Shown one piece after another: positions 1,480 through 20,162 of a DNA stretch of 20,162 bases. Numbering within the stretch: the first letter of the stretch is position 1; the number at the start of each line of letters is the position of its first letter. A program made the translations under genes and the position numbers. The notes under the pieces are model-generated. The model saw only the letters and a program-made list of their open reading frames with translations. It searched no databases and was not told the DNA's origin. Source of the DNA: a virus (Duplodnaviria > Heunggongvirae > Uroviricota > Caudoviricetes); IMG/VR virus record IMGVR_UViG_2684623171_000007. One strand, 5' to 3'.

Positions 1480-2370
1480 TCAGGCTGCCAGATCATCGTT
1501 TCCGATGGAAGCATAATAAGCTTTTTCTGCTTCTGCCGGAGGAGTATGGCCCAGCCTTCCCAGCAATCGTCGATTGTTATACCAGTCCACCCACGTTAGT
1601 GTGGCCAGTTCCACTTCTGCACGGTTTTTCCAGCTCTTACGGTGTATTACCTCCGCTTTGTAAAGACCATTGATGCTCTCAGCCATCGCGTTGTCATACG
1701 AGTCGCCTGTACTCCCTGTTGATGCCAGTAATCCGGCTTCTTTTAGTCGCTCCGTATAGGCCAGTGACACATACTGAGAGCCTTTATCGCTGTGATGGAT
1801 GGTGCCAGACGGACGACGGGCCCACAACGCCTGCTCCAGCGCATCCAGCACGAATGTCGTTTCCATAGACGATGAGACCCGCCACCCCACGATGTATCCG
1901 GCAAACACATCAATGATAAACGCCACATAGACGAAGCCCTGCCATGTGCTGACGTAAGTAAAATCAGCCACCCACAGCTGGTCAGGTCGTTCTGCCACGA
2001 ACTGACGGTTTACGCGGTCGCCTGCGGCAACGGCTTTCCGGCTGATGGTCGTACGGACCTTTTTACCCCGGAGAACACCGGCAAGTCCCATAACCGCCAT
2101 GAGACGTGCCACTGTACATCTGGCCACCCTGATTCCTTCCCGTAACAACTGACGCCAGACTTTACGCACACCGTACACCTGATGATTTTCATCGTATACG
2201 CGCTGTATCTCTCTCTTCAGCCAGTCGTCGTGCTGCGCACGGGCACTGCGTTTATCCGGATGATGTCGCTGTTGCTGACAATGGTAATACGTTGACGGGG
2301 CAATATGCAGTTCGCTGCATACCGGTCCGACCCCGTACTGCTCACGCAGCTTATCCAGCAGTGGCATCAT
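1480..2370 (-). CDS. IS629-like transposase OrfB (catalytic part; normally expressed as an OrfAB fusion by -1 frameshifting in IS3-family elements)
   Basis: ORF track 296 aa in the -1 frame relative to OrfA, overlapping OrfA by 4 nt at an A6 run; contains the DDE-family motifs. Confidence 0.85.
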
Positions 2371-2693
2371 TTTTTCCAGAGGCGGTCGAACTCCGCCTTC
2401 GCAAAATAAGCGGAAGCCTGGCGAAGGATATCGTTACTGCGGCGCAGTTCACGATTTTCACGTTCCAGCTCTTTCAGACGCTGACGTTCAGCGCTGGTGA
2501 GCCCACCATCACCGCCCCCGGTATCCCGCTCATGCTGGCGAACCCAGACACGCAGAGTCTCCGGCGTACAGCCAATCTTTGGGGCAATGGAACAAATTGC
2601 CGCCCACTGTGAGTCATATTCATCCTGACTTTCCAGAACCATACGAATCGCCCGCTGACGGACTTCGGGGGAAAAACGAGTATTTTTAGTCAT
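2367..2693 (-). CDS. IS629-like transposase OrfA (HTH DNA-binding part)
   Basis: ORF track 108 aa: [98 protein letters not shown]. Stop overlaps the OrfB start in an A-rich run (GGAAAAAATGATG). Confidence 0.9.
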
Positions 2694-8675: not shown

Positions 8676-9002
8676 ATGACTAAAAATACACGTTTTTCCC
8701 CCGAGGTCCGTCAACGGGCAGTCCGTATGGTTCTGGAAAGTCAGGGCGAATATGACTCACAATGGGCGGCAATTCGTTCCATTGCCCCAAAGATTGGCTG
8801 TACACCAGAGACTCTGCGTGTGTGGGTTCGTCAGCATGAGCGGGATACCGGGGGCGGTGATGGTGGACTCACCACCGCTGAACGTCAGCGTCTGAAAGAG
8901 CTGGAACGTGAAAATCGTGAACTGCGCCGCAGTAACGATATCCTTCGCCAGGCTTCCGCTTATTTTGCGAAGGCGGAGTTCGACCGCCTCTGGAAAAAAT
9001 AA
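8676..9002 (+). CDS. IS629-like transposase OrfA (copy 2)
   Basis: ORF track 108 aa; differs from copy 1 OrfA at 4 residues (V16, G24, R34, T67 versus I, D, C, S). Confidence 0.85.
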
Positions 9003-9678
9003 TGCCGCTGCTGGATAAGCTGCGTGAGCAGTACGGGGTCGGACCGGTATGCAGTGAACTGCATATTGCCCCGTCAACGGATTACCACTGTCAGCAACAG
9101 CGACATCATCCGGATAAACGCAGTGCCCGTGCGCAGCGCGATGACTGGCTGAAGAGAGAGATACAGCGCGTATACGATGAAAATCATCAGGTGTACGGTG
9201 TGCGTAAAGTCTGGCGCCAGTTGTTACGCGAAGGTATCAGGGTGGCCAGATGTACAGTGGCGCGCCTCATGGCGGTTATGGGACTTGCCGGTGTTCTCCG
9301 GGGTAAAAAGGTCCGTACTACCGTCAGCCGGAAAGCCGTTTCCGCAGGCGACCGCGTAAACCGTCAGTTCGTGGCAGAACGTCCTGACCAGCTGTGGGTG
9401 GCTGATTTTACTTACGTCAGCACATGGCAGGGCTTCGTCTATGTGGCGTTCATCATTGATGTGTTTTCCGGATGTATCGTGGGGTGGCGAGTCTCATCGT
9501 CTATGGAAACGACATTCGTGCTGGATGCACTGGAGCAGGCGTTGTGGGCCCGTCGGCCGTCCGGCACAGTCCATCACAGTGATAAAGGTTCTCAGTATGT
9601 ATCACTGGCCTATACGGAGCGACTAAAAGAAGCAAAACTGCTGGCATCAACAGGGAGTACAGGTGACTCGTATGACAA
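9002..9678 (+). pseudogene. IS629-like transposase OrfB, C-terminally truncated (copy 2)
   Basis: ORF track 9002..9691 (229 aa); the last residues (..DSYDNVFY*) are read from non-IS sequence, so the conserved C-terminal ~70 aa of OrfB are missing. Confidence 0.8.
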
Positions 9679-9710
9679 TGTATTTTATTAGTTCACATAC
9701 AATTATCAGA

Positions 9711-14332: not shown

Positions 14333-14563
14333 TTAATGGAGTTTGTTTTGCTGCTGGATGAGCTGTTGAAACTCGTGCAGATCATCCGCCAGATAGCTGA
14401 AAACAGAGGCGGAATAAATGTTTGATAGTGCGTGGCTGCGCTCATGCAGCATATTGATGTGCATGATTTGCGCGACGCGTGATGCGCGGGAAAGTCTGCG
14501 GTTGATTTCAGTCTGGATGTGACGACGCTCCGCGATAGCGCGGTGCTGTTTGCGGTCTGCCAT
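14333..14563 (-). CDS. hypothetical small basic protein (76 aa)
   Basis: ORF track; AAGAGG Shine-Dalgarno about 8 nt upstream of the ATG. Preferred over the overlapping 205-aa ORF 14257..14874, which has low-complexity composition. Confidence 0.4.
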   Translation of the reverse strand: MADRKQHRAIAERRHIQTEINRRLSRASRVAQIMHINMLHERSHALSNIYSASVFSYLADDLHEFQQLIQQQNKLH

Positions 14564-17205: not shown

Positions 17206-17409
17206 TTAGCTGTTAGCCAAAGCGTCTTTTAACATCGCCACAAGGTTTACTTCAGGCTTTTCCATTTTGGCGCGTTTGGGGCGGATAATAATTCGACCGT
17301 CAGCCAACATCTTTTTGCATGTATTAAGAGGGATACCTGTTATCTCTGCATATTTCTGCAGGGATACATAGGGGGCATTCACATTGATATTGATGGTTAT
17401 ACCTGACAT
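17206..17409 (-). CDS. Cox/excisionase-like small HTH protein
   Basis: ORF track 67 aa. The segment PYVSLQKYAEITGIPLNTCKKMLADGRIIIRP resembles the P2 Cox segment as I recall it (IPYQEFAKLIGKSTGAVRRMIDKGKLPVI). Second gene of the early operon. Confidence 0.5.
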   Translation of the reverse strand: MSGITININVNAPYVSLQKYAEITGIPLNTCKKMLADGRIIIRPKRAKMEKPEVNLVAMLKDALANS

Positions 17410-17425
17410 CCCACTAGCCTCCTGA

Positions 17426-17632
17426 TCAGGAAGATTTGTTTTGTTCTTTCTGGGTTAGCTCTAGGCCGCGAAGGGAGATCATGCGCGCCATGTTAGAGGA
17501 TGAGCGTTGTTCTTTAGCTGCCATTTCATCAATGACGGCTCGCTCCTCGAGGGACAGCCGAAGTGCCAGTCTTGGACCTGTGGCGGTGTTACGCGGAATG
17601 CGTGATCTGGTATCGTGAAGAACTTGTTTCAT
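17426..17632 (-). CDS. ribbon-helix-helix (Arc/CopG-like) DNA-binding protein, first gene of the early operon
   Basis: ORF track 68 aa; the pattern PRLALRLSLEERAVIDEMAAKEQRSSSNMARMI fits a beta-strand followed by two helices as in RHH repressors. Immediately downstream of the divergent promoter region. Confidence 0.5.
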   Translation of the reverse strand: MKQVLHDTRSRIPRNTATGPRLALRLSLEERAVIDEMAAKEQRSSSNMARMISLRGLELTQKEQNKSS

Positions 17633-17707: not shown

Positions 17708-18112
17708 ATGAAAAATGATATTGGTCGGCGGTTGCGTGAGGAAAGGGAAAGATTGGGACTTAGTCAAGTTGCCATGAGCGACATTGGTGGAGTCAAAAAG
17801 CTAACTCAGCTTAGATATGAGAAAGGAGATAGCTTTCCTGATGCTGCGTATTTGGCAGCGCTGTCTCGTTTTGGCCTTGATGTTCAGTATGTTGTGTTGG
17901 GAATTCACTCACCTGAAACTTATAACGATGATGAGCAGGAATTGATTACTCGCTTTCGAGCAGCTTCGTTAGATGTGAAAAACGCGGTGATTGGGGCTTT
18001 AAAAGGTGCGATCAGTGAAAAGGAAACTCAGCCATCAGGACGTGAGTTAAATATTTCTGGTGGTAATAACCGTATCGCTGGTCGTGACTATAACGAAACT
18101 AAGGGTAGGTGA
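17708..18112 (+). CDS. XRE-family HTH repressor (P2 C / 186 CI-like immunity repressor candidate)
   Basis: ORF track 134 aa. N-terminal Cro/C1-type HTH (IGRRLREERERLGLSQVAMSDIGGVKKLTQLRYEKGDSFPDAAYLAALSRFGLDV); divergent from the early operon and on the integrase strand, as in P2. Confidence 0.7.
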   Translation: MKNDIGRRLREERERLGLSQVAMSDIGGVKKLTQLRYEKGDSFPDAAYLAALSRFGLDVQYVVLGIHSPETYNDDEQELITRFRAASLDVKNAVIGALKGAISEKETQPSGRELNISGGNNRIAGRDYNETKGR

Positions 18113-18127
18113 TAGTAGGGAGGTGAC

Positions 18128-18778
18128 ATGGCCGTCAACTCAAACGGTTCAAACAATCGCGTTGCTGGGCGTGATTTTCACGAAAAGAATATTCAGATAG
18201 AGCGATATGATGGTTCTCATACCGTCAATATCGCAATCCCTTCGAATAATGATGATGACGATCGCCCTTTGCTTAAGGCTCAGCGTAAGGAGCTAAATAG
18301 CTTGGTTGCTGCTATTGCAGAAGCTAGCAATACTGAAGCGTTTATTATTTGGCAAAAAGTACATGCGGAGATTGGTGTAGCTGGTATTGATGATATGACA
18401 GTAAATCAATATAAAACAGCGGAGAGTTTTCTGCATGCAATGCTTGAGCGATGTAAAGATCATGATGCCTGTAAGGCTCTTGTAAGTTTATTACTACGTA
18501 ACAGTGAAGACTGTGGACTTCGACAAAAACTTCTGCGGTATTGCCATATCAATTTCGGTACAGGACGTTTAAACGATCTTACTCGTTCTCAGTTACAGTC
18601 TGCATTGTCGTGGTTAGAGCAACAATCGGCATCAAGCCACATAGAGAGTTCGACCTTACCAGAAGTCCGACTTCGTGCTTCAGAATTAATCCGACTTTAT
18701 CCAAAAGAAATAATATTCTTTATCTGCGTAGGGGTTTTGGTAGGCGGTGTCATTTCTAGGGCGTTTTTTAATTTGTAA
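18128..18778 (+). CDS. hypothetical protein with a C-terminal transmembrane anchor (cargo between repressor and integrase)
   Basis: ORF track 216 aa; GGGAGG Shine-Dalgarno 6 nt upstream. C-terminal hydrophobic segment IIFFICVGVLVGGVISRAFF. N-terminus repeats the motif found at the repressor C-terminus (GSNNRVAGRDFHE versus GGNNRIAGRDYNE). Confidence 0.55.
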   Translation: MAVNSNGSNNRVAGRDFHEKNIQIERYDGSHTVNIAIPSNNDDDDRPLLKAQRKELNSLVAAIAEASNTEAFIIWQKVHAEIGVAGIDDMTVNQYKTAESFLHAMLERCKDHDACKALVSLLLRNSEDCGLRQKLLRYCHINFGTGRLNDLTRSQLQSALSWLEQQSASSHIESSTLPEVRLRASELIRLYPKEIIFFICVGVLVGGVISRAFFNL

Positions 18779-18807
18779 TCTTACTTGAGCTAAATTGAGG
18801 TAATGAT

Positions 18808-19155
18808 ATGAAAGTAAAAAAGGTTCAACTATTAGTTACTTTTTTATCTATGTTTTCTTTTTCCGCCGTCGCAATGCCTTTTAAAACTATTGAACGTGAG
18901 AGTTTCAATGGGGTATGGCCATTTAATACTGATGAGGTTCAATTACAGTGTCTTGATGGTAATCCTTATGTGATGAATTTTGACGATAATAAGTTATATG
19001 CACTTACAGGTTTGGCTCGAATAAAAGGTAAAACATTTGGTGCGTTACCGTTAGATAACAATAATCCATTTTGGCTAGATAATGATGCCGCCCCAGGGTT
19101 AAAAAAGAGTCTGGGGGATGTCACTAAGGCTGCATTTGATTTATGTGATAAGTAA
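18808..19155 (+). CDS. hypothetical secreted/periplasmic protein with predicted signal peptide
   Basis: ORF track 115 aa; N-terminus MKVKKVQLLVTFLSMFSFSAVA looks like a Sec signal peptide. Mature part has two cysteines and is encoded by AT-rich DNA. Confidence 0.55.
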   Translation: MKVKKVQLLVTFLSMFSFSAVAMPFKTIERESFNGVWPFNTDEVQLQCLDGNPYVMNFDDNKLYALTGLARIKGKTFGALPLDNNNPFWLDNDAAPGLKKSLGDVTKAAFDLCDK

Positions 19156-19160
19156 CTAAA

Positions 19161-20162
19161 ATGTCGGTTCGTAAGATTCCATCAGGTAAATGGCTTTGTG
19201 AATGTTATCCCTACGGGGCATCGGGAAAACGCATTCGTAAACAGTTTGCGACAAAAAGTGAGGCGCTCTCTTATGAGCGCCGTTTAATGAATAGTAGAGT
19301 TGGAGACGAGTTTCAAGATGGTTCTGGTTCTCGTCTTTCTGAGTTGATTGCTCGTTGGTTTGAGATGTACGGTAAAACCTTGTCCTCTGGTGCAGAGCGC
19401 AAAGTCAAACTTGAGGCGATTTGTTCCAGGCTGGGAGATCCATTTGCTTCTCAGTTTGACAAAAATATGTTTGCTACTTATCGGGAAAGAAGGCTATCAG
19501 GAGAATGGAATCCCAAGGGGAAGAAAAAACTTAGTGAAGCAACCGTTAATCGCGAGCAGTCATATCTACATGCTGTTTTTGCCGAACTGAAGCGCCTTGG
19601 GGAGTGGTCTGGTGAAAACCCCCTGACTGGTATTCGCAAGTTTCGTGAGGAAGAAAAGGAACTGGCGTTTCTGTATGTAGATGAGATTGAACGCCTTCTG
19701 ATTGCGTGTGATGAGTCACGGAATAAAGATTTGGGGGTTGTTGTCCGTATTGGGCTTGCGACTGGTGCTCGGTGGAGTGAAGCAGAAGGATTAAAGCAAT
19801 CTCAAGTACTGCCCGGTCGAATCACATTTGTTAAAACTAAAGGAAAGAAGAACCGCACTGTACCGATTTCACCTCAATTGCAAGCTATGCTTCCTAAAAA
19901 ACGAGGAGCGCTATTTTCACCATGTTATGAGGCTTTTGACGCTGCAATTAAGAGAGCGAAGATCGAGCTTCCTGATGGGCAATTAACTCATGTGCTACGT
20001 CACACGTTTGCCAGTCATTTTATGATGCGGGGTGGAAATATTCTTGTGTTGCAAAAAATACTGGGGCATAGCGATATAAAAATGACTATGCGTTATGCGC
20101 ATTTTGCTCCAGGTCATTTAGAGGCTGCTGTTGAATTGAACCCTTTTGACAATAGAGGGTAA
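19161..20162 (+). CDS. int: tyrosine recombinase, phage integrase (P2 Int family)
   Basis: ORF track 333 aa; the catalytic-domain signature ..ATGARWSE.. / HVLRHTFASHFMMRGGNILVLQKILGHSDIKMTMRYAHF contains the conserved R, H-x-x-R and Y of tyrosine recombinases. The stop codon is the last triplet of the window, so any attachment site lies outside. Confidence 0.9.
   Translation: MSVRKIPSGKWLCECYPYGASGKRIRKQFATKSEALSYERRLMNSRVGDEFQDGSGSRLSELIARWFEMYGKTLSSGAERKVKLEAICSRLGDPFASQFDKNMFATYRERRLSGEWNPKGKKKLSEATVNREQSYLHAVFAELKRLGEWSGENPLTGIRKFREEEKELAFLYVDEIERLLIACDESRNKDLGVVVRIGLATGARWSEAEGLKQSQVLPGRITFVKTKGKKNRTVPISPQLQAMLPKKRGALFSPCYEAFDAAIKRAKIELPDGQLTHVLRHTFASHFMMRGGNILVLQKILGHSDIKMTMRYAHFAPGHLEAAVELNPFDNRG

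What the first reader, a model, noticed from the sequence alone, without database searches (positions are those of the whole stretch)
18128..19155. Low-GC two-gene cargo between the immunity repressor and the integrase: membrane-anchored protein plus secreted protein
In P2, int follows C closely. Here two AT-rich genes are inserted between them: a 216-aa protein with a single C-terminal transmembrane segment and a 115-aa protein with a signal peptide. I recognise neither family. They are on the repressor strand and so would be expressed from the prophage in the lysogen, which is the typical position and expression pattern for superinfection-exclusion, defence or lysogenic-conversion genes.
Basis: partly seen in the sequence, partly recalled or inferred. 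Interest (0 to 1): 0.7.

Follow-up and report, generated by a model that had tools for sequence, protein, structure and literature searches.

The report
Repressor-linked membrane protein plus YebY moron
The two genes are not one cargo pair: the 216-aa membrane protein is a conserved, uncharacterised partner of the prophage repressor, and the two share a matching peptide at their adjoining ends, while the 115-aa secreted protein is an exchangeable YebY-family accessory gene.

Summary
Both ORFs exist as described in the E. coli O157:H7 P2-like prophage Sp13. They lie on the repressor strand, with no terminator before int.

Both families are recognisable. orf216 is a "mini-Flk": a disordered N-terminus, one Flk_N helical domain (PF27202) and a C-terminal membrane anchor. 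orf115 is a signal-peptide YebY/DUF2511 protein.

They are two different things.
- **orf115 sits in a variable slot.** Only 6 of 59 diverged related loci carry it. Others carry BRCT, DUF8087 or membrane genes, or nothing.
- **orf216 always follows the repressor.** This holds in 100 of 102 loci, usually with a 9-15 nt gap, and also in Mu-like transposable prophages of Pectobacterium, Gilliamella and Pseudomonas.

The repressor's C-terminal tail (NNRIAGRDYNE) and orf216's N-terminal head (NNRVAGRDFHE) carry the same roughly 16-aa motif. The motif type co-varies locus by locus (26 loci, 0 of 200,000 permutations). It is maintained at the protein level, not the DNA level. A tail-less repressor homologue has no Flk_N neighbour.

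Best reading: a portable immunity cassette in which a membrane-anchored protein is coupled to the repressor through matched termini. The coupling mechanism and its output are inferred, not shown. No PADLOC model of known defence systems matched either protein.

The parts
17708..18112 (+). Immunity repressor, XRE-family HTH, 134 aa. It ends with three in-frame stops (TGA TAG TAG).
   Evidence: HTH_31/HTH_3 and phrog_8 hits. It is divergent from the Arc-like/Cox-like early operon. PMC2669165 calls it the Sp13 repressor lacking a peptidase motif.
18050..18097 (+). Repressor C-terminal tail motif, N115-E130 (NISGGNNRIAGRDYNE).
   Evidence: Conserved in 47 of 120 listed repressor homologues. It matches the head of the downstream protein in each locus. 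The motif occurs only twice in all six frames of the window.
18128..18778 (+). orf216: tail-anchored 'mini-Flk' protein, made of a head motif, an Flk_N domain and a C-terminal TM segment.
   Evidence: phrog_5825 E 8.5e-103. PF27202 Flk_N on cluster representatives. 28% identity to K-12 Flk residues 26-146. AF2 model.
18134..18184 (+). orf216 N-terminal head motif, V3-E19 (VNSNGSNNRVAGRDFHE). AF2 gives it low confidence (pLDDT < 50), so it is probably disordered when alone.
   Evidence: S5 G7 N10 R11 D16 E19 are invariant in 28-30 homologues. pLDDT < 50 for residues 1-42. Co-varies with the repressor tail.
18266..18646 (+). Flk_N helical domain, residues 47-173.
18701..18772 (+). C-terminal transmembrane anchor, residues 192-215.
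   Evidence: Hydropathy. AF2 helix. A conserved YPKE-hydrophobic-end pattern in the family.
18808..19155 (+). orf115: secreted YebY/DUF2511-family protein. The signal peptide spans 18808-18873. It occupies the variable moron slot.
   Evidence: Pfam PF10709 28.4 bits, above the cutoff of 21. PDB YebY 7n0j by sequence E 0.0027 and by fold TM 0.75, then MlbQ 2mvo. Cys48 and Cys113 are invariant, the same positions as the YebY disulfide (PMC8689200).
19161..20162 (+). Tyrosine integrase, last gene of the operon. The window ends at its stop codon.
   Evidence: Int_N and Phage_integrase hits.
17206..17632 (-). Divergent early operon start: Arc-like (17426-17632) and Cox-like (17206-17409) genes.
   Evidence: phrog_3431 E 4e-27 and phrog_575 E 1e-27. 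A promoter-like site on the - strand at 17698-17670.
14333..14563 (-). P4 epsilon-like 'derepression' (antirepressor) gene. It is a candidate third partner of the repressor.
   Evidence: PF25738 31.9 bits. Annotated as such in RefSeq. Discussed for Sp13 in PMC2669165.

Best explanation
The region holds two independent things.

**(1) Repressor plus orf216: a portable two-gene immunity cassette.** orf216 is a cytoplasm-facing, C-tail-anchored inner-membrane protein with one Flk_N helical domain. Its disordered N-terminal peptide has the same sequence motif as the repressor's C-terminal tail.

The most likely mechanism is that the two matched peptides mediate a direct homotypic contact (beta-strand pairing), or compete for the same partner. 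A fraction of the repressor is thereby tethered to, or regulated at, the membrane. This tunes maintenance or exit from lysogeny, in the way lambda RexA/RexB, co-transcribed with cI, bind CI and modulate the switch.

- Shown: gene order, strict linkage, motif match, co-variation, protein-level selection, and the domain and membrane architecture.
- Inferred: physical interaction, its direction, and its effect on the switch.

**(2) orf115: a separate lysogenic-conversion moron.** It is a periplasmic, disulfide-bonded YebY paralogue. It probably acts in the periplasm like YebY or MlbQ, either damping YebZ/YobA copper import or binding a small ligand or peptide. This too is inferred.
For: **Linkage.**
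- 100 of 102 loci with an Flk_N homologue have the repressor homologue immediately upstream, with gaps mostly of 9 or 15 nt.
- This holds across Escherichia, Klebsiella, Citrobacter, Erwinia, Rosenbergiella, Mixta, Izhakiella, Enterobacter, Kosakonia, Buttiauxella, Yersinia, Hafnia, Serratia and Arsenophonus.
- The same pair occurs in Mu-like transposable prophages (rve transposase context) of Pectobacterium, Gilliamella, Pseudomonas and metagenomes.

**Motif match and co-variation.** Four or more motif types occur, each shared by the tail and head of one locus.
- In 26 non-redundant loci the cognate mean score is 43.7 against 26.8 +/- 2.1 for permuted pairings. None of 200,000 permutations reaches the observed value.
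- In the 15 loci without the NRxAGRD motif type the figures are 37.1 against 24.3 +/- 1.8.

**Protein-level selection.** Only 38 of 98 identical motif residues use the same codon.

**Negative control.** A tail-less repressor homologue in a similar P2-like prophage has no Flk_N gene.

**The head motif is modular.** It also heads other downstream proteins, most of them membrane proteins: a zinc-ribbon-plus-TM protein, and coiled-coil-plus-TM-plus-periplasmic-domain proteins.

**Architecture.** AF2 gives a disordered head, a helical domain and a C-terminal helix. There is homology to Flk.

**orf115.** Searches support the family assignment. Its variable presence is shown. PMC8689200 already noted yebY homologues next to a recombinase and a CI-like HTH. 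PMC11923076 shows YebY lowers YebZ-mediated copper uptake.

**Analogy.** RexA binds CI (bioRxiv 10.1101/2021.04.19.439022).
Against: - No interaction was computed or measured.
- The head is low-confidence in AF2.
- Within the NRxAGRD type alone, co-variation is only marginal (p = 0.025).
- Two cognate pairs (L165, L187) score poorly.
- About four loci keep a repressor tail while the downstream gene has lost its head and Flk_N part (L195, L198, L199, L201). The tail may therefore have a role of its own.
- In L159 and L165 the head-bearing partner has no C-terminal TM.
- No isolated, characterised phage carries the gene. Only one of 50,697 phage records does, and there the gene lies in 3 pieces and is unannotated. 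Hence there is no phenotype to lean on.
Confidence: 0.5

Rival explanations
1. The shared motif is a recognition tag for a common third partner rather than a tail-head contact. Candidates are the epsilon-like antirepressor or a protease or adaptor (ClpXP, Lon, FtsH). orf216 would then act as a membrane decoy, buffer or adaptor that sets how easily the repressor is inactivated.
For: - Sp13 is mitomycin-C inducible although its repressor lacks a peptidase motif, and it carries an epsilon-like gene (PMC2669165).
- P4 epsilon binds the P2 C repressor, and C-terminal tails of the Mu repressor control ClpXP degradation (established knowledge).
- Locus-specific co-variation is equally expected if both peptides track one lineage-specific partner.
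- A long disordered cytoplasmic N-terminus on a membrane protein is the kind of end from which FtsH initiates degradation (established knowledge).
Against: - No third protein in the window carries the motif.
- The same recognition peptide working at a free C-terminus and at a free N-terminus is unusual for proteases.
- The cassette moves between P2-like and Mu-like phages, whose antirepressor sets differ.
Confidence: 0.2
2. orf216 is a superinfection-exclusion, abortive-infection or defence membrane protein, simply co-inherited with the repressor and acting independently of it. orf115 would be a second conversion or defence gene.
For: - Its position and strand match lambda rexAB, P22 sieA/sieB and similar genes (established knowledge).
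- It is a membrane protein expressed from the prophage.
- The neighbouring slot holds diverse accessory genes, some with weak similarity to the candidate defence system PDC-S48 (E 1.4e-8).
Against: - No PADLOC hit for orf216 or orf115.
- Independence does not explain the matched, co-varying termini, nor the absence of Flk_N next to the tail-less repressor.
- Defence cargo is normally variable, whereas orf216 is constant and only the next gene varies.
Confidence: 0.15
3. orf216 is a phage-encoded Flk mimic. It acts on a type III secretion export gate (flagellar FlhA/FlhB, or the LEE injectisome in O157) and holds it in early-secretion mode. This would be a lysogenic conversion affecting motility or virulence.
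For: - It is homologous to the N-terminal module of Flk and has the same tail-anchored topology.
- Flk/Fluke blocks the flagellar secretion-specificity switch and interacts with FlhA-C in a bacterial two-hybrid assay (PMC13344023).
Against: - The match covers only one module (58 bits against a family cutoff of 353).
- The family is very common in Klebsiella pneumoniae (cluster P0098 on 754 contigs), a classically non-flagellate species (established knowledge).
- Genuine Flk proteins lack the head motif.
- This reading does not explain the link to the repressor.
Confidence: 0.08

Closest known systems
Flk (RflH, 'Fluke'), the flagellar secretion-switch regulator of Salmonella and E. coli
   Same: It shares a homologous Flk_N helical module (28% identity over 124 aa). 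It also has a single C-terminal membrane anchor with the bulk of the protein in the cytoplasm (PMC13344023).
   Different: orf216 has one module rather than two and is 216 aa rather than about 331 aa. It scores far below the family cutoff. It carries the repressor-matching head peptide that Flk lacks. It is prophage-borne and always follows a repressor, and it is abundant in non-flagellate hosts.
Lambda cI-rexA-rexB (accessory genes co-transcribed with the repressor that bind CI and modulate the switch)
   Same: The genes lie directly downstream of the repressor on the same strand and are expressed in the lysogen. One partner is a membrane protein. The proposed role is modulating lysogeny or exclusion (bioRxiv 10.1101/2021.04.19.439022).
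   Different: There is no sequence similarity and no PADLOC hit at all. Here there is a single tail-anchored protein, and the coupling is suggested by matching terminal peptides, a feature not described for Rex.
Amyloid-signalling gene pairs (fungal HET-S/NWD2; bacterial BASS; E. coli prophage Bab/Agp with BASS11)
   Same: Two adjacent genes carry the same short G/N/Q-rich motif, at the C-terminus of the first product and the N-terminus of the second. The motif is more alike within a pair than between pairs. Bab/Agp also sits in E. coli prophages (bioRxiv 10.1101/2024.11.07.622273; 10.1101/2020.01.06.895854).
   Different: The partners here are a DNA-binding repressor and an Flk_N membrane protein, not a Bell/HeLo pore-former and an NLR/TPR sensor. 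The motif is shorter (about 16 aa). It lacks the G-phi-Q-phi-G signature quoted for BASS3/RHIM, but no comparison with the BASS motif profiles was made. Fibril formation is untested.
YebY (E. coli AZY operon) and MlbQ (lantibiotic self-resistance), the DUF2511 family
   Same: orf115 has the signal peptide, the two invariant cysteines at positions 48 and 113, and the fold (PMC8689200).
   Different: It is about 30% identical to YebY. It is not in a yobA-yebZ-yebY operon but in a prophage immunity operon. It belongs to a small sub-family of 18 clusters, all eight contexts examined being prophages.

Membership tests
Flk (NCBIfam PRK10715, flagella biosynthesis regulator) | Full-length match above the curated cutoff (353 bits) | tested here: not met
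   58.2 bits; only profile positions 20-149 of 339 are matched.
Flk (NCBIfam PRK10715, flagella biosynthesis regulator) | Flk_N domain (PF27202) present | tested here: met
   Precomputed PF27202 on nearly all cluster representatives and on neighbours. BLASTP to K-12 Flk E 2e-10. PF27202 is not in the local Pfam copy, so it was not rescored.
Flk (NCBIfam PRK10715, flagella biosynthesis regulator) | Single C-terminal transmembrane anchor with a cytoplasmic body | tested here: met
   Hydropathy and AF2 helix 192-215. Topology is inferred, not tested.
Flk (NCBIfam PRK10715, flagella biosynthesis regulator) | Controls the flagellar type III secretion-specificity switch | not testable with these tools
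   Requires FlgM secretion and class 3 reporter assays (PMC13344023).
YebY / DUF2511 (PF10709) | Pfam score above the gathering threshold | tested here: met
   28.4 bits against 21; residues 28-113 cover profile positions 2-87 of 87.
YebY / DUF2511 (PF10709) | Signal peptide and two conserved cysteines forming the Cys48-Cys113 disulfide | tested here: met
   The signal sequence is seen directly. C48 and C113 are invariant in 15 homologues. The disulfide itself is inferred from PMC8689200.
YebY / DUF2511 (PF10709) | YebY/MlbQ fold | tested here: met
   Foldseek top hits are 7n0j (TMt 0.75, prob 1.0) and 2mvo. The model is only moderate (pLDDT 62).
YebY / DUF2511 (PF10709) | Encoded in a yobA-yebZ-yebY (copper uptake) operon | tested here: not met
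   It lies between orf216 and int in a prophage.
Amyloid-signalling pair (BASS/FASS type) | Same short motif at the C-terminus of one product and the N-terminus of the adjacent gene's product, more alike within pairs than between | tested here: met
Amyloid-signalling pair (BASS/FASS type) | Partners are a Bell/HeLo-type effector and an NLR/STAND or comparable sensor | tested here: not met
   The partners are an XRE HTH repressor and an Flk_N tail-anchored protein.
Amyloid-signalling pair (BASS/FASS type) | The motif forms cross-beta fibrils or prion-like foci | not testable with these tools
   Needs peptide ThT/EM assays or GFP-foci assays.
Known anti-phage defence systems (PADLOC-DB v2) | Match to any defence-system protein model | tested here: not met
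   No hit for orf216 or orf115 at E <= 1.

The most novel reading that the evidence does not exclude
The matched tail and head peptides act as a templating or beta-zipper signalling motif, of the amyloid-signalling type. In this reading a membrane-anchored sensor (orf216) converts or sequesters the prophage repressor, or the repressor's state activates the membrane protein. Lysogeny maintenance, induction or abortive infection would then be coupled to a membrane or envelope signal by a self-propagating protein-protein switch. That would be a new, SOS-independent way of controlling a prophage switch, carried as a portable two-gene cassette by P2-like and Mu-like phages.
Probability: 0.12. Interest if true: 0.9.

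Novelty: new variant of a known kind. Interest (0 to 1): 0.62.

Why it matters
Accessory genes transcribed with the repressor are a known kind (rexAB, sie genes). Here, however, the accessory gene is tied to the repressor by a co-evolving terminal peptide.

The cassette is widespread:
- hundreds of E. coli O157 genomes;
- more than 750 K. pneumoniae contigs for one cluster alone;
- many other Enterobacterales, plus Pseudomonas and Gilliamella.

It crosses phage types (P2-like and Mu-like) and has never been studied. Only one of 50,697 deposited phage genomes carries it, and there it is unannotated.

The cassette offers a directly testable hypothesis for how non-SOS-cleavable repressors of P2-like and Mu-like prophages are regulated. 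The mitomycin-C inducibility of Sp13 is unexplained.

It also gives the poorly understood Flk_N domain a second biological context.

Finally, it separates a true moron slot (YebY, BRCT and others) from the conserved module. This matters for anyone mining prophages for defence or conversion genes.

Tried and rejected
**Hypotheses rejected.**
- **Read-through or fusion of repressor and orf216.** The two ORFs are in the same frame in 5 of 5 P2-like loci checked, with 9 or 15 nt spacers. But three consecutive stops separate them here, the Mu-like loci are in other frames, and no fused HTH-Flk_N protein appeared among 120+120+90 listed homologues.
- **Gene conversion or a direct DNA repeat as the cause of the similarity, and ribosome hopping between matching codons.** Only 38 of 98 identical residues share a codon, and the Arg codon is often AGG in the tail but CGN in the head.
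- **A third motif-bearing protein in the phage.** None was found in any of the six frames.

**Searches that gave nothing decisive.**
- **Foldseek against PDB with the orf216 model.** Nothing below E 0.8.

**Runs that could not be done.**
- **afdb50 fold search.** Library unavailable.
- **The search for related loci with very diverse alignments.** Failed. Single distant queries in viral contigs gave 0-1 loci.

**Literature.** Searches for Flk_N, phage Flk-like proteins, or tail-anchored partners of repressors found nothing relevant.
Full report
**What is there.** The window is the right-hand ~20 kb of the defective P2-like prophage of E. coli O157:H7 next to yecA.
- It is 100% identical to many O157 chromosomes. 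599 of 5,426 complete E. coli genomes have a match, and RefSeq annotation is given.
- It is 97.9% identical to Escherichia phage 520873, a Xuanwuvirus.
- This is prophage Sp13 of strain Sakai. It lacks most morphogenetic genes yet is excised and replicated about 30-fold after mitomycin C, although its repressor has no peptidase motif (PMC2669165).

On the + strand lie four tightly spaced genes:
- the XRE-type repressor, 17708-18112;
- orf216, 18128-18778;
- orf115, 18808-19155;
- int, 19161-20162.

orf216 and orf115 have good ribosome-binding sites. No terminator-like site lies between the genes. The Arc-like and Cox-like early genes diverge on the other strand.

The low-GC claim holds clearly only for orf115 (35.3%). 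orf216 (41.2%) is close to the repressor (44.0%) and int (44.5%).

**What the two proteins are.**

orf216:
- It matches phrog_5825 end to end, and its relatives carry Pfam PF27202 'Flk_N'.
- It aligns with residues 26-146 of E. coli K-12 Flk at 28% identity. It hits NCBIfam Flk only partially, 58 bits against a cutoff of 353.
- AF2 with 28 homologues gives a low-confidence N-terminus (1-42), a helical domain (47-173, pLDDT about 80) and a C-terminal helix (192-215) that coincides with the hydrophobic maximum.
- It is thus a 'mini-Flk': one Flk_N module on a C-terminal membrane anchor.
- Flk itself is a cytoplasmic, tail-anchored protein that keeps the flagellar export gate in early mode and interacts with FlhA-C (PMC13344023).

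orf115:
- It is a YebY/DUF2511 protein. Pfam scores above threshold. PDB YebY 7n0j matches by sequence and by fold, followed by MlbQ.
- It has a Sec signal, and cysteines at 48 and 113 are invariant. These are the positions of the YebY disulfide (PMC8689200).

PADLOC has no match for either protein.

**They are not one cargo unit.** Contexts of homologues show the order repressor, Flk_N gene, 0-3 variable genes, int.
- Of 102 loci carrying an Flk_N homologue, 100 have the repressor homologue just upstream, mostly 9 or 15 nt away.
- Among the 59 loci whose Flk_N protein is less than 95% identical to orf216, only 6 carry the YebY gene.
- The others carry a 288-298-aa BRCT-domain protein, an 85-111-aa DUF8087 protein, a 244-aa membrane protein, other small genes, or nothing. 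A few show weak similarity to the candidate defence system PDC-S48.
- In Erwinia the YebY gene sits between the repressor and the Flk_N gene.
- The YebY sub-family is small, with 18 clusters. Its presence next to a recombinase and a CI-like HTH gene in Enterobacteriaceae was already noted in PMC8689200.

orf115 therefore occupies a moron slot, while orf216 belongs with the repressor.

**The unexpected feature: matching termini.** The repressor ends with ...NISGGNNRIAGRDYNETKGR and orf216 begins MAVNSNGSNNRVAGRDFHE.... The motif occurs nowhere else in the six frames of the window.

Both copies are conserved across genera. More distant repressor homologues have other tails, and the downstream protein of the same locus has the corresponding head:

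| Locus | Repressor tail | Downstream head |
|---|---|---|
| Pectobacterium | FNGDISGQFAGNQIINN | FNGTAQGQFSSRDIINI |
| Gilliamella | GEGQIAGGNIY | TAEQIAGRDIY |
| Pseudomonas | QQFNGPVGTVTSGDVVN | QQFHDRVHQVAAGDIKN |
| Metagenome 1 | FHGAVSGGVAARDIINN | FQGNVDGGVAGRDIVN |
| Metagenome 2 | TFHGSVGQSVAGSITNKSGVTFNV | DFHGEVGQAAGGDINNYGVNISF |

These distant loci are Mu-like transposable prophages, with a divergent Ner-like gene and an rve transposase. The pair is therefore a portable cassette, not a P2 speciality.

Statistics and controls:
- On 26 non-redundant loci the mean cognate tail-head score is 43.7, against 26.8 +/- 2.1 for permuted pairings. None of 200,000 permutations reaches the observed value.
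- In the 15 loci without the NRxAGRD type the figures are 37.1 against 24.3 +/- 1.8. Within the NRxAGRD type alone the signal is marginal (p = 0.025) (first version).
- Two paralogous peptides diverging independently would not stay more alike within a locus than between loci, so some matching constraint acts.
- This is not DNA homogenisation. Only 38 of 98 identical motif residues use the same codon.
- A repressor homologue without the tail, in a similar P2-like prophage with the same kind of integrase, has two unrelated genes and no Flk_N gene downstream.
- The head also occurs on other downstream bodies, most of them membrane proteins: a zinc-ribbon-plus-TM protein in L168, and coiled-coil-plus-TM-plus-periplasmic-domain proteins in L123, L173 and L184. 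This indicates the head is a modular coupling element.

Exceptions exist:
- Four related loci keep the tail but have a downstream gene reduced to a TM segment plus a periplasmic domain.
- Two pairs match poorly.
- In L159 and L165 the partner has no terminal TM.

**How it most likely works.**

Shown: a repressor and a tail-anchored cytoplasm-facing protein are inherited together, probably co-transcribed, and carry co-evolving peptides at their adjoining ends. One of these peptides is predicted disordered.

Inferred: the peptides pair with each other, or compete for one partner. The membrane protein thereby tethers, sequesters or otherwise regulates the repressor, tuning lysogeny maintenance or exit.
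- The nearest functional precedent is lambda RexA/RexB, transcribed with cI. RexA binds CI and promotes the lysogenic-to-lytic transition (bioRxiv 10.1101/2021.04.19.439022).
- The nearest architectural precedent is the amyloid-signalling gene pair. There the C-terminus of one product and the N-terminus of the next share a motif. One example, Bab/Agp, lies in E. coli prophage hotspots (bioRxiv 10.1101/2024.11.07.622273; 10.1101/2020.01.06.895854).
- Membership of that class is not claimed. The partner domains differ and fibril formation is untested.

Rivals:
- A common third partner, such as the epsilon-like antirepressor at 14333-14563 or a protease.
- An independent exclusion or defence protein.
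- A Flk mimic acting on type III export gates. This is disfavoured by the gene's abundance in K. pneumoniae and by the repressor link.

orf115 most likely acts in the periplasm as a YebY paralogue. YebY lowers YebZ-dependent copper uptake (PMC11923076), and its structural relative MlbQ is proposed to bind a lantibiotic (PMC8689200). Which ligand the phage copy handles is unknown.

**Novelty and verdict.**
- The gene families are known by name only, and neither phage copy has a tested function.
- Only one of 50,697 deposited phage genomes encodes an orf216 homologue, and there it lies in three pieces and is unannotated.
- Literature searches found no description of a tail-anchored partner of a repressor with matched termini.
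- I rate it a new variant of a known kind: repressor-operon accessory genes and matched-terminus gene pairs.
The position and expression logic are right. The 'two-gene cargo of unknown families' reading is wrong in that one gene is a conserved repressor partner and both families are identifiable.

Noticed in passing
window 1480-2693 (-) and 8676-9691 (+): There are two copies of an IS3-family element (HTH_Tnp_1 orfA plus phrog_157 transposase orfB). One lies beside or inside the tail-sheath gene region (432-1673). This is consistent with Sp13 being a defective prophage.
   Followed up: partly
window 14333-14563 (-): This is a P4 epsilon-like 'Derepression' family gene (PF25738, 31.9 bits) inside the P2-like prophage. 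PMC2669165 suggested it may explain the mitomycin-C inducibility of Sp13. It is a candidate partner of the repressor tail.
   Followed up: partly
window 17426-17632: RefSeq/PGAP annotates a 45-aa hypothetical ORF on the + strand (17481-17618) here. The - strand ORF is a clear Arc-like repressor (phrog_3431, E 4e-27), and is annotated as such in phage 520873.
   Followed up: partly
window 18110-18130: The repressor ends in three consecutive in-frame stops (TGA TAG TAG). orf216 starts 15 nt later in the same frame. The five P2-like loci checked all have 9 or 15 nt spacers (in frame), whereas Mu-like loci do not. This may be a trace of an ancestral single gene, but no fused protein was found.
   Followed up: partly
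L003 5647-6513, L022 4635-5513, L024 4663-5538 and about 20 viral loci: The commonest alternative cargo in the slot before int is a 288-298-aa protein with an N-terminal BRCT domain (Pfam E 5e-5). It has weak similarity to the PADLOC candidate system PDC-S48 (E 1.4e-8) and to WYL models.
   Followed up: partly
[not shown]
   Followed up: no
L123 3411-4223, L173 3008-4033, L200 2955-3737, L195 2886-3221: In some Mu-like loci the head-bearing partner has its TM segment followed by a small periplasmic cysteine-containing domain (C-x-F-x-G-K-x-Y-[ST]-x-G). In L195, L198, L199 and L201 only this TM-plus-domain remnant is left while the repressor keeps its tail.
   Followed up: no
L031 3069-3455 and 3697-3966 (Arsenophonus triatominarum): Two tandem copies or fragments of the tail-bearing repressor precede the Flk_N gene. 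In the endosymbiont Symbiopectobacterium (L027) the tail motif, the Flk_N head and int are all degraded.
   Followed up: no
NC_049344.1 / CP025923.1 (L002 3513-4553): In the only deposited phage record with this region, orf216 aligns in three pieces, orf115 is not annotated, and int is split in two. These are probably sequencing frameshifts rather than biology.
   Followed up: no
L082/L083 versus the window: These loci have a repressor 93% identical to the window's but an Flk_N protein only 72% identical, with DUF8087 instead of YebY. This indicates recombination within the cassette.
   Followed up: no
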